DNA of 64,000 nucleotides from the human T2T-CHM13v2.0 reference genome, Homo sapiens. Numbering within the stretch: the first letter of the stretch is position 1; each line of letters begins with the position of its first letter. The notes under the pieces are model-generated. The model saw only the letters and a list, made by a program, of their open reading frames with translations, did no database searches and was not told the DNA's origin. A program made the position numbers and the translations under genes. The stretch lies in assembly GCF_009914755.1 (NCBI RefSeq), contig NC_060948.1; one strand, written 5' to 3'. Of this stretch, positions 39,506 through 44,764 are shown piece by piece.

Positions 39506-39845
39506 GCAATGGAAGGGCACCATGGATCAATAAGGCCGAGAGGCGAGACAAAGAGGGCAAAAATCTTCTTTATTGAGCTCTCGGGCGAGGTTCACTGGTC
39601 CGCAGGGGGAAGGCCAGGGAAGTCATGCTGTACCAAAGGTGCAGTGTGCTTTTATGGATGCTGGGTGAGGAGTGGGCGGGGAAGGGGCAGGGTCGGTTGA
39701 GTTTTGCCCTTCTGAGTGTGACATGCCCTAGTGGGCATGCGCGTTAGTCGGGGTGGTGGGAACAGGAAAGGTGAACCCGGAAATGCAGAGTCAGAGTATC
39801 CGAGGTGGCGATCGCCATCTTGGAGTCTTCACTGGAGTCCAATCA
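39506..39845 (-). mobile_element. 3' LTR (lacks the last ~6 bp)
   Basis: Direct repeat of 44428-44764; preceded on the minus strand by PPT aaaaagaggttggac (39846-39860). Confidence 0.92.
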
Positions 39846-39879
39846 GTCCAACCTCTTTTTGGTTATAGAAAAGGGATGA

Positions 39880-41734
39880 CAAAATCGTCTGGCTACTTCC
39901 TGCTGTTAAGGGGCATCGTTGGGGAGGGGGCCTAAATCAGAGGTTGGCAGTTGGATGTAGGGGTGAAGTAATATCTGGTTGAAAGCGACCCTCGTGATTT
40001 CTTGTATCCGCTGGTGGAGAAACTGTACTAGAATTGGGGCAAAACACATATTATACAGAGAATTATAATTGGGATAAAGAAAGGGAGCATCTGTTGAACC
40101 ACGGGTGAAAACTACCAGAAAGACCAGGGCAGAGAGGGTCGTAGGAGTGTTTTAACTCCTCTTGGATCTTTTTTTTTTTTAAAGTTTGTAAATTGGTCTC
40201 AACTACCCCTGACTCATTGAGATAATAGCAGCATTCTTCCTGTAACAATAAACACGTCCCTCCTTTTTCTGCCATAAGCAAGTCTAAGGCCCACCTGTTC
40301 TTTGCCGTGACCTGTGCTACTGAAGTGATCTGTCACTGTAGGGAGGACAGGGACTCGGCTGATGCCTCAATGGCCAACTGCAGGCGAGTAGACAGATCTT
40401 GAGATGTTTGGATTGAGTGGGTGAGGGCTCCTTTTCCTAGCCCTGATGCCACTAAGGAGGAGGCTAAGGAGATGCCTAGTACTAAGGGTAGGAAAATAGC
40501 CCATTTGCTTTTATTTCACGACCTTGGCTCGGTCCAGGCTAGCAGATGGCTAAGTTCGTCCTGACTATATAGGGTCAGGCTAGGGATGAGAGAGATGGAT
40601 AAGCACAAGGTGTGATTACCAGTTGAGTTAAGAACTTTAGTTAGCATGGAGTTACATCAGAAGTAGCCTCCGGGAGGTGCTGGGGTGCTGGTAAGCATCC
40701 TGGTCTGGTTACACCAAGAGGCATTTGGAGTAGAGTAACAGAACGGGAACTTGTGTCTTGTAGGGGCTGAGAATAGTGGGACCTGTCCTTTTGGGATCGG
40801 TGGTATAGGGGTGGATGAATTTCTTGTATAATTAAAGGGGGTAGGGAGAGGAACTGCTACTAAGGGAGGTCTTCTCAGGGCTGCACAGAGGAAGCAGTGG
40901 GAGAGGTTTTGTACCCCTGTGGATTAGAGCAATTGTGCACCTTCTGAGATTAAAGTTAACCATGAGAAGGGGGAGGACTTGGCCTGGTCAGCTGCCAGTT
41001 GAAGCTGGGTGGCAAGCTCTTTCTTGGCTGACTGGATTGAGGAGGCTAAGTCGGATAAACATGTGACAGTGGTTTTAAGCGTCCTGGCAATGCGGATCTT
41101 AGCTACTGGATACATAAAAGTTCTGTGCTCATATAGTCCTCCATCTACACTGGAGGCCCAGCAGGGGTCCCAAGGGTCAGAGATTTGGAGGTTAAATCCG
41201 TTAAAGCCATCCCATCCTCCAGTGGAGGTATTGACATAGAACATTGGGTCAGATCCTTTTTCAGTACGAGTTAATGCCTCATGGATATTGCACCAGTGCC
41301 ACGGACAGCCTACATTTTCTTTGGCCCAGCTGGTATTGTATTTGGAGTTACTTTGATCATACAGGAAGCAAAGTGCAGGGTTTTTTTCTAGCTGGGCCTA
41401 GGGAAGATAATTTTAGACCTAGGAAAGCTATGGGTGCCTGGCACCCTGCTGGCAGGCATGCTGCTGTGGCTACTAGTCTAGAGGAGACTGCCTGTCCGGA
41501 ACTCCAATTCTCAGTGAGGGAAAAAAACCCAGTGAGAGGGAGTCTGAGAGGGGGCTTGTCAAAGCGAACTTCATGTTGGTGAAAGTTCTGGAGGGAGCCT
41601 TGCCACACCAGTTCGTCTATATAGGACAACAGATTTTCAGGCCAGCGAAGGGTGTTAGCAAAACTAGGGAATGACCAGCTTTCCTCGAAAAGAACCTGCA
41701 TAAATTGTTGGAGCCTGTCATGCAGAGAATTCAT
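39880..41734 (-). pseudogene. ERV env (SU and TM) disrupted by a frameshift near 41385 and by stops
   Basis: ORFs 41357-41734, 40924-41244 and 40063-40281; CFLC motif; ISD NRWALDLLMAEKGGT followed by CX6CC (CLLLQEECC). Confidence 0.92.
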
Positions 41735-41789
41735 GCAGTATTTGATTTAGAGAGTTTCAGTTTGGTTGGGGAGAGGGAGGTGACAGTCC

Positions 41790-42500
41790 AAGTGGCCTGA
41801 TGTTGTGTAGGTGCCCTCTTAAGATGGGAAATATGGTACCAGGAGGGAAGGCCTATAAGTTTAGCTGCCACTGGTGTTGTAAGAATTACCGTATAGGGGC
41901 CTTTCCACTGTTGGGAGAGACCTCTTGCCTGGAGGTCTTTTACTAGTACCTGATCTCCTGGGGTTATTAGGCCAGACTGTCTGGGCTGAGTCGTCCGGGC
42001 TTTGGAAGGCTGTGGTTGGCATGTTCTCTTAGCAACTCCCTTAACAGGGTGAGGCAGGGCAGGTATGTGCCAAAAGGTGGGGTATTCACAGGGAGCTCTT
42101 GAAAGAGGAAGGGGCGCCCGTATAGGAGTTCAAAGGGGCTAAGGCCTGTGGGGCTTCAGGGTGCTGCCTGGAGCCGCGCGAGGGCAAAGGGAAGTAAGAT
42201 TATCCATGATTGGCGTGTCTCAAGAGCCAATTTGATTAGGTGTTCTTTCACAAGGCCATTGGTGTGTTCACTGTTCCAGAAGACTGCGGATGGTACGGAA
42301 TGTGTAGCTTCTAGTTAACACCAAGTGTGGTTGCCACCTGTTTGACTATTTTGGAGATAAAAGCAGGCCAAATCGCAGGATTATCTGTTCAATGAGGGTT
42401 GAAGCTACTACCTCTGCTGTTTTATGAGTGGTAGGGCAGGCTTTAATCTAACCTGAGAAAGTGTTTACTAAAGTAAGAAGATAACTCGATGTATTTGCTT
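41790..42500 (-). pseudogene. ERV pol integrase remnant (RT and RNase H deleted)
   Basis: YLLTLVNTFSG, IPYHPQSSG, GLSPFELLYGRPF, QQWKGPYTVILTTP. Confidence 0.85.
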
Positions 42501-42529
42501 TAGTAAGGAATAAAAGGAAGGATGGTAGA

Positions 42530-42775
42530 TTATGAGTTCAAGAAAGTTATATAGTGGTCTAGGCGGCAGGGCAGTGAAGGCGTCTGGCGGTAGGTGGAGG
42601 GAGTGCCATCAATCCTTATAACAGAGATTGAGGAGGGGCAGCTGGACCTGCTAAAAGATGGCAAAACAGAGTAGGTAGCCCTTGTGTCTAGCAAAAAGGA
42701 AATGGACTTACCCGCTACCTGAAGCATTACCCTGGGCTCGGCAAGGGTGAGAGGGGTTCCCGAGCCTGGGCCTCT
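42530..42775 (-). pseudogene. ERV protease remnant, in frame after the gag TGA (42776-42778)
   Basis: EPRVMLQVAGKSISFLLDTRATYSVLP; catalytic DTG changed to DTR. Confidence 0.9.
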
Positions 42776-43957
42776 TCAGTCGTCGTCCAGTTGGAGGAGC
42801 TGGAGGGCACCTTCGCCATCGGGGGAGGGGTCGCCATGTGGAGACACAGCGGCCACTCTGAGGCTGGGGCAGTCTGACCTCCAGTGCCCCATTTGTTGGC
42901 AGTTAGGGCACAGGCACATTGGTGGCTTGGGGTTTGGGCACTGTTTTGCCCAATGACCTCGATTGCCACACTTGAAACAGTTGCAAGGCAGGCAGGATGG
43001 TTGCTGTTGGCTAGGGCACCAGCTGGCCCAGTGTCCTGAGTTGCAGCACTTGAAGCAGGTGCCAGACGGGGCCCGGGAGATTGTACCGCTACCTCTCCTG
43101 CTGGGGCTCTTAGGGAATGCCGGTTGCAGGGCAGCTGCCAGGGCTTGGGTTTGGAGCTGAACTTTTTATTTCAGTCTTGCCTGTCATTGTCCCTCAGCCG
43201 CCTCCTCTCAGGAATTAAAAACTTTGAACGCCAGCTTTACTAAGTCCTGGATAGGGGTTTGGGGGCCCTCCACTGCCTCATCCAGGATTAGCGGATATCA
43301 CTGCCCACAGCTAATGTGTTAGGAGTAGTAGATGTAGTGGACTGGTATGGCACTACGGGGAGGTGGAAATAAGAATGGGGATAAGACGGAAGCCAAGGAG
43401 TTAGGTGGGCAGGGTTAAAAGAACAAATGGGAACGGGAATTAAAATGGCTGCTGAATGGTGGCAGAAGAACTAAAATGGCAGCAGAGAAAAAAGGAAGTA
43501 AGATGGCGGAGGTGAGGAAACAGGTAGTAAGATGGTGGCGGTGCAGAAGGAGATGGCAGCGGAGAGACTAAGATGGGGGCCACAGACAAGATTAACGGCA
43601 AGAGAGGCTGGCCAGACTTCAAGGGGAAGGCTAGCCAGATGGACTTGCTCCAGTGAAAACACTTGGCGGCAGCTGTCCGACGAGAGCAGAGGTCCCAGAA
43701 CCTTTGAACAAATTTGATTTTTGACTGTTTGCCTCACCTCTGACAAAATTGGTGAGGTCGTTTAGGATACTGAAGTCGAGTGTGCCTTCAGGGGGCCAGC
43801 GAGATTGGTTGTCTAAGGTGTATTGTGGCCAGGCAACTGTGCAGAAGAAAATTAGTCGCTTTTGTTTTAAATCTTGATCGAGTTGTAAAGTTGGGAGGTT
43901 GCGCAGGAGGCACCCTAAGGGGGTGTTTTGCGTGATTTTGGACTGGGTGGACCCCAT
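42776..43957 (-). pseudogene. ERV gag (matrix start, most of capsid deleted, nucleocapsid intact)
   Basis: MGSTQSKITQNTPLGCLL...FFCTVAWPQYTLDNQSRWPPEGTLDF; GPQTPIQDLVKLAFKVFN; CCHC knuckles. Confidence 0.9.
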
Positions 43958-44402
43958 CCTCTTCCCTTTATGGCAGCGGTCTGAGGGACAGCAGAAGCGG
44001 CCTTCTGGGTTCACTCAGACCACGTGGTTCCTGGAGCCTCGGATCGGCTACTTCAGACACAGACGTCTCAGAGTCGTCAGTGCAGATTTGGACTTCCCCT
44101 GGGGAAGTAAACTTGGGTCACCTGGTGATGGACTGGCCTTCCCTTGAGGAAGGAAACTCTCCCTGGTCATGCACATGACTCTCGGCCAGGGACGAAGGGA
44201 CAAAAGGAAAAAGGAGAGGTACTCACCTCGCGTCAGCCAAATTGGACTGGAGTAGCTGCAGCAACTGTGACCTGGCGGCAAGTAACCGGACTAAACGAAC
44301 GGATGGCCGTGTAGGAGAAGCCTGACCTGACTGAGGGACAGGCCTGATCCGACCAGGAGGGGAGTCCCCCTGAGCCTCTGGGGGAGCTTAGGAGCTGTCC
44401 CC

Positions 44403-44420
44403 TCCTGGGTTTCGGCACCA
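44403..44420 (-). promoter_or_regulatory. Primer-binding site, tRNA-Phe
   Basis: Minus strand tggtgccgaaacccagga, 1 nt after the LTR end; complementary to the tRNA-Phe 3' end with one mismatch. Confidence 0.92.
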
Positions 44421-44421
44421 A

Positions 44422-44764
44422 TGAAAGGCAACGGAAGGACACCGTGGATCAATAAGGCCGAGAGGCGAGACAAAGAGGGCAAAAATCTTTATTGAGCTCT
44501 GGGGTGAGGTTCACTGGCCCACAGTGGGAGGGCCAGGGAAGTCATGCTTTGCCAAAGGTGCAGCGCGCTTTTATGGATGCTGGGTGAGGAGTGGGTGGAG
44601 TAGGGGCGGGGTCGGTTGAGTTTTGCACTTCTGAGTGTGACATGCCCTAGTGGGCATGCACATTCGTCGGGGTGGCGGGAACAGGAAAGGTGAACCCAGA
44701 AATGTTGAGTCAGGGTATCCAAGGTGGCGATCGCCATCTTGGAGTCTTCACCGGAGTCCAATCA
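44422..44764 (-). mobile_element. 5' LTR
   Basis: tg...ca termini, cataaaa TATA-like box and aataaa on the minus strand. Confidence 0.93.

What the first reader, a model, noticed from the sequence alone, without database searches (positions are those of the whole stretch)
42869..43057. Gag nucleocapsid with three intact CCHC zinc knuckles
One open minus-strand frame reads CFKCCNSGHWASWC-PSQQQPSCLPCN-CFKCGNRGHWAKQC-PNPKPPMCL-CPNCQQMGHWRSDC, three perfect CX2CX4HX4C motifs. MLV-like gammaretroviruses have one knuckle and HERV-H/F-like elements up to two, so three is unusual. Knuckles 1 and 2 look like a diverged duplication, implying it existed in the replicating virus. The supplied ORF track misses this frame.
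Basis: partly seen in the sequence, partly recalled or inferred. Interest (0 to 1): 0.7.

Follow-up and report, generated by a model that had tools for sequence, protein, structure and literature searches.

The report
Known triple zinc knuckle of HERV-Fc2
Three zinc-knuckle motifs sit in the broken gag gene of a fossil HERV-Fc2 retrovirus on the human Y chromosome; the triple layout is shared by the other human copies, was published in 2016, and likely makes no protein at this site, so the finding is ordinary.

Summary
In detail: three exact CX2CX4HX4C motifs lie in one open minus-strand frame. They belong to a 5.3-kb HERV-Fc2 provirus (window 39506-44764, minus strand) that lacks capsid and most of pol and has a broken env. 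The triple layout is not private. An identical copy lies on the opposite palindrome arm of chrY, and all 4 autosomal relatives (chr2, chr7 twice, chr11) have it, while HERV-Fc1 has two knuckles. The duplication inference holds: knuckles 1 and 2 are 73% identical, synonymous sites are near saturation (pS 0.73-0.9, pN 0.12-0.2), and their differences are shared across copies. So a 78-nt duplication predates these insertions and likely diverged under selection in the replicating virus. At this locus the frame has ten stops upstream and no ATG before knuckle 1, and intact ligands fit neutral decay. Verdict: real, already known.

The parts
43016..43057 (-). CCHC knuckle 1 (proximal type; first copy of the duplicated unit)
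42938..42979 (-). CCHC knuckle 2 (proximal type; second copy, 78 nt after knuckle 1)
42869..42910 (-). CCHC knuckle 3 (distal type; 83% nt identity to the second knuckle of HERV-Fc1)
42776..43165 (-). Stop-to-stop frame holding NC and the gag C-terminus, 129 aa, no ATG before knuckle 1
44422..44764 (-). 5' LTR, 343 bp, TG...CA
44403..44420 (-). Primer-binding site for tRNA-Phe, 17 of 18 bases matching the commonest ERV-Fc PBS in the Diehl table
43631..43957 (-). gag start and matrix remnant (weak Gag_MA match, E=0.016), frame closed by a stop at 43633
43278..43631 (-). About 350-nt pyrimidine-rich segment standing where the long chr11 copy has 906 nt (the p12/capsid position); found in chrY, both chr7 copies and chr2; rich in GCCAT words
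42530..42775 (-). Protease remnant (RVP, E=0.005), followed by two pol deletions of about 2.4 and 1.6 kb relative to the chr11 copy
41731..42129 (-). Integrase C-terminal remnant (MLVIN_C, E=1.4e-14)
39906..41734 (-). env remnant in several pieces split by stops and frame changes; TM piece matches TLV_coat, E=6.9e-19
39506..39845 (-). 3' LTR, 91% identical to the 5' LTR; its last few bases are missing

Best explanation
The three knuckles are the nucleocapsid of a capsid- and pol-deleted HERV-Fc2 provirus; the extra knuckle is a 78-nt duplication older than the human insertions that likely arose and was kept by selection in the replicating ERV-Fc2 virus, and at this locus it is likely an untranslated fossil. 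How it would have worked (inferred from other retroviral NC proteins, recalled): each CCHC motif binds one zinc and stacks a Trp on unpaired guanines of the packaging signal, so the virus had two proximal-type knuckles and one distal-type knuckle for RNA packaging and chaperoning. The duplicated unit spans the proximal knuckle, its 9-codon linker and three codons of the distal knuckle. That register fits a reverse-transcriptase template switch between Cys codons of the two knuckles (inferred). The 5.3-kb deleted form cannot encode capsid or reverse transcriptase, so it would have been copied in trans and carried NC as a passenger (inferred). It inserted on chrY roughly 20 million years ago or later and has a second copy on the opposite palindrome arm.
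For: Shown. Same layout in 5 of 5 independent insertions plus the palindrome twin; HERV-Fc1 and a chr6 element have two knuckles. K1-K1 94%, K2-K2 96%, K1-K2 73%, K1 or K2 to the first Fc1 knuckle 76% and 72%, K3 to the second Fc1 knuckle 83%. Of 42 knuckle columns, 9 separate K1 from K2 in all five copies, 6 of them at third codon positions; pS 0.73-0.9 against pN 0.12-0.2. The linker after K1 matches at offset 78 with 17-21 of 36 bases against a background of about 10, ranking first or second of 170 offsets. Ten stops lie between the gag ATG and NC in that frame. All 12 ligands survive in 3 of 5 insertions, against a rough neutral chance of 0.24-0.43 each. Published: PMC4798954 section 9.
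Against: Only 42 nt per knuckle and 7-8 synonymous sites, so the selection signal rests on 5-6 synonymous and 4-7 nonsynonymous differences. The knuckle tree is weakly supported (K2 clade 56, K1+ split 78; only K3 has 100). Offset 85 scores about as well as offset 78 for the linker, so the junction is tentative. Pairwise dN/dS between copies is 0.30-0.92 in 9 of 10 pairs (one pair has no synonymous change), below 1 but on too few changes to call either way. The three macaque proteins retrieved have two knuckles, so the Old World monkey part of the published claim was not reproduced here. No expression data were seen.
Confidence: 0.92

Rival explanations
1. The third knuckle is a post-insertion tandem duplication private to this chrY copy.
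For: Knuckles 1 and 2 are adjacent and similar.
Against: The same layout and spacing occur at chr2, chr7 (two loci) and chr11, and K1-K2 differences are shared by all five insertions. K1-K2 divergence (27%) is far above LTR-LTR divergence (5-9%).
Confidence: 0.01
2. The chrY NC frame has been kept open by host selection and makes a small RNA-binding protein.
For: 129-aa open frame with all 12 ligands; two identical copies on chrY; dN/dS point estimates below 1.
Against: No ATG before knuckle 1 and ten upstream stops. The Y copy carries private amino-acid changes in K1, K2 and the linker, and 2 of 5 insertions have lost a ligand. Arm-to-arm identity of 99.9% also covers both 10-kb flanks tested. 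RefSeq has no gene here (hub table).
Confidence: 0.03
3. The extra knuckle came by recombination with a related ERV-F/H virus, not by self-duplication.
For: K1 is as close to the first Fc1 knuckle (76%) as to K2 (73%), and the tree does not firmly join K1 with K2.
Against: The in-register 78-nt unit includes linker and the start of the distal knuckle. Saturated synonymous sites blur the order of branching, so an old self-duplication gives the same picture.
Confidence: 0.15

Closest known systems
HERV-Fc2 / homERV-Fc2 (Diehl et al. 2016, PMC4798954; RepBase HERV-Fc2)
   Same: Three NC zinc fingers, tRNA-Phe PBS, C-rich genome, TG..CA LTRs. 94% identical over 4.8 kb to the chr7:154.58 Mb copy; HERV-Fc2 env is placed at 7q36 in PMC8138558.
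   Different: This copy lacks capsid and most of pol, has a 343-bp LTR (476 bp at chr2), a broken env and a damaged 3' junction.
HERV-Fc1 (Xq21.33)
   Same: Same group; homologous proximal and distal knuckles, 71-73% nt identity in the gag/pro stretches.
   Different: Two knuckles only, with a stop in the first; a different env immunosuppressive-domain motif.
Two-knuckle NC of HIV-1 and other retroviruses (PDB 1a1t, 1cl4, 2ihx)
   Same: CCHC knuckle family, E from 1.4e-5 to 6.7e-4.
   Different: Two knuckles; other genera.

Membership tests
ERV-Fc | PBS complementary to tRNA-Phe (GAA) | tested here: met
   44420-44403 matches 17 of 18 bases of the commonest PBS in Diehl Figure 2 source data 3
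ERV-Fc | Cytosine-rich, guanine-poor sense strand | tested here: met
   C 31.5%, G 19.6%; feature stated
ERV-Fc | TG...CA LTR termini and 5-bp target-site duplication | tested here: inconclusive
   5' LTR is TG..CA. The 3' junction lacks about 9 bases and only 3 of 5 target-site bases match. Sister copies on chr7 (66 Mb), chr2 and chr11 show 5-bp duplications
ERV-Fc | Canonical Fc env with HERVFC-type immunosuppressive domain | tested here: met
   The chr2 and chr7 (66 Mb) copies read exactly as the second HERVFC motif listed in PMC4724089 file 2, and chrX as the first. The Y copy matches the second at 18 of 22 and the first at 14 of 22 positions, counted by eye
HERV-Fc2 subgroup | High identity to the HERV-Fc2 locus at 7q36 and low identity to Fc1 at Xq21.33 | tested here: met
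   94% to chr7:154.58 Mb against 71-73% to chrX:96.28 Mb in internal stretches. Cytoband labels; equating these coordinates with the cytobands is my inference
HERV-Fc2 subgroup | Three zinc fingers in NC | tested here: met
HERV-Fc2 subgroup | env not overlapping pol | tested here: inconclusive
   The integrase stop (41733-41731) and the first env-frame ATG (41734-41732) nearly coincide; the true env start was not established
HERV-Fc2 subgroup | Placement in an RT-based phylogeny | not tested
   RT is deleted in this copy

The most novel reading that the evidence does not exclude
The triple knuckle itself is known, but two details may be undescribed. First, the extra knuckle maps to a 78-nt in-frame duplication about as old as the Fc1/Fc2 split, kept by selection. 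Second, four of the five human insertions form a non-autonomous, env-keeping satellite in which the p12/capsid region was replaced by a unique 350-nt cluster of YY1-like GCCAT words that could act as a cis-element for its mobilisation or silencing.
Probability: 0.25. Interest if true: 0.35.

Novelty: already known. Interest (0 to 1): 0.1.

Why it matters
Little new follows. The three-finger nucleocapsid is a published marker of primate ERV-Fc2, and this is one more decayed copy. It remains a natural example that retroviral NC can gain a knuckle. Nothing read here tests what the third knuckle does, so that small biochemical question appears open.

Tried and rejected
Private duplication: rejected. 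Chance: rejected. Host-selected ORF: not supported. Protein database searches gave 7 near-length and 2 longer hits: two unnamed 165-aa proteins with three knuckles at 87-90% identity, three macaque proteins with two knuckles, one raccoon dog protein with one strict knuckle; no monkey three-knuckle protein was found. An env search gave no family-named hit. A 14-kb flank search scored only 28 of 108898 candidates and missed the other palindrome arm, so the arm was compared directly. A Pfam scan of the interrupted gag frames did not run because they hold stops. Benit et al. 2003 and a de Parseval 2003 look-up by a recalled id were not held, so I could not check whether they list the chrY loci or the 350-nt segment. 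Searches 'HERV-Fc2 + chromosome Y' and 'HERV-Fc2 + 7q36.2' found 0 papers; 'three zinc fingers' and 'three zinc knuckles' listed nothing relevant to ERV-Fc; 'YY1 + HERV-Fc2' listed 3 papers, seen as listings only for that question. Vargiu et al. 2016 score HERVFC as two fingers, and their Table 2 has no class above two. No structure or complex was predicted, since it would not change the verdict.

Full report
Observation. It holds three strict CX2CX4HX4C motifs at 43057-43016, 42979-42938 and 42910-42869; Pfam zf-CCHC matches three stretches, E=1.1e-13. They are the only strict motifs in the six frames of the window, against a mean of 0.04 in 100 shuffles. The frame runs stop to stop from 43165 to 42776 with its first Met after knuckle 2, which likely explains the missing ORF call.

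Anatomy. The motifs lie in a 5.3-kb provirus on the minus strand: 5' LTR 44764-44422, tRNA-Phe PBS 44420-44403, matrix remnant, NC, protease remnant, integrase C-terminus, env in pieces, and 3' LTR 39845-39506. Compared with the longest human relative (chr11:5.987-5.997 Mb) it lacks about 2.4 and 1.6 kb of pol. A 350-nt unrelated segment stands where chr11 has 906 nt of gag. Ten stops separate the gag ATG from NC in that frame. The LTRs differ by K2P 0.089, about 20 million years at a recalled rate of 2.2e-9 per site per year, and likely an overestimate on Y; sister copies give 0.049-0.078. A chr12 segmental duplicate shows the empty site. An identical inverted copy lies at chrY 18.52 Mb within flanks of 99.9% identity.

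Family. A six-frame search of the genome gave 136 matches from 150 scored candidates of 1792. Six are close (74-100%): the two Y copies, chr11, chr7 at 66.0 and 154.6 Mb, and chr2; next is chrX:96.28 Mb at 57%. The env immunosuppressive motifs of the chr2 and chr7 (66 Mb) copies equal the second HERVFC motif listed by Vargiu et al. 2016 (PMC4724089; passages and searches in supplements 2 and 5 seen), and chrX equals the first. HERV-Fc2 env is placed at 7q36 (PMC8138558, passages). [quoted passage not shown] PBS and C-rich bias fit ERV-Fc. The element is therefore a truncated HERV-Fc2.

Is the third knuckle private? No. All 5 independent insertions have three knuckle positions at the same spacing. 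All 12 ligands survive in Y, chr11 and chr7 (66 Mb); chr7 (154 Mb) has a stop in knuckle 1 and chr2 has lost its first Cys. HERV-Fc1 and a chr6 element have two knuckles. A rough neutral model gives 0.24-0.43 for keeping all 12 ligands at 3-5% divergence, so 3 of 5 needs no selection after insertion. Pairwise dN/dS over the 189 nt is 0.30-0.92 in 9 of 10 pairs on 0-5 synonymous changes, which is not informative.

Origin. Knuckle 3 corresponds to the second Fc1 knuckle (83%). Knuckles 1 and 2 both correspond to the first (76% and 72%) and are 73% identical to each other, against 94-96% among copies of the same knuckle. Nine of 42 columns separate them in all copies, six at third positions; pS is 0.73-0.9 and pN 0.12-0.2. 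Similarity at offset 78 continues through the linker (17-21 of 36, background about 10), though offset 85 scores similarly. The simplest reading is an in-frame 78-nt duplication of the proximal knuckle, its linker and three codons of the distal knuckle, likely by template switching, followed by long replication under purifying selection. The counts are small, the tree support is weak, and capture from a related virus is not excluded.

Function. All three knuckles keep Trp after the His. By analogy with MLV and HIV NC (recalled; nearest solved relatives), each would bind zinc and recognise unpaired guanines in the packaging signal. That applied to the virus. The deleted form lacks capsid and RT, would have needed a helper, and likely makes no NC here.

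Novelty. PMC6407205 (passages) describes two fingers in canid ERV-Fc1. I could not reproduce the monkey part: the three macaque proteins retrieved have two knuckles and may belong to the other lineage (inference). Benit et al. 2003 was not available, and the Diehl alignments were not read, so whether the duplication register, this locus or the 350-nt segment are in print is open.

Verdict. Real, correctly described, already known. Interest 0.1.

Noticed in passing
window 43278-43631 (-); also chr7:66.047 Mb, chr7:154.586 Mb, chr2:83.879 Mb: A 350-nt C/T-rich segment replaces 906 nt of gag in the four deleted insertions and has no other match in the genome search (5 of 5 candidates). It holds 5-7 GCCAT and 4-5 CCATNTT words against 0.4-0.9 expected; 0 of 1000 dinucleotide shuffles reach this. 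The motifs were chosen after seeing the sequence, and the YY1 label is recalled. Origin unexplained.
   Followed up: partly
window 25050-56042 and G000:C24:18.505-18.536 Mb: The window lies in one arm of a large inverted duplication: two 10-kb flanks are 99.92% and 99.96% identical to the other arm and the provirus is 100% identical. Probably palindrome P5 (name recalled).
   Followed up: yes
L023 (G000:C12:38.049 Mb): A segmental duplicate on chr12 (about 86% identical) has the empty pre-insertion site, so the provirus inserted after that duplication.
   Followed up: yes
L031 (G000:C17:29207000-29211000): Five head-to-tail units, each an LTR-like piece of about 360 bp (73-75% to this LTR) plus 2-3 copies of a 125-bp repeat.
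   Followed up: partly
G000 chr4, chr7, chr11, chr19 against chr9, chr11, chr14, chr16: Other LTR matches fall into a short class like the 343-bp Y LTR and a longer class with extra sequence near the 5' end; chr2 carries long LTRs yet shares the internal deletions.
   Followed up: no
L028, L029, L030: Sister copies keep long open frames in the env region (617, 409 and 605 aa stop to stop), unlike the Y copy; a coding HERV-Fc2 env at 7q36 is in print.
   Followed up: no
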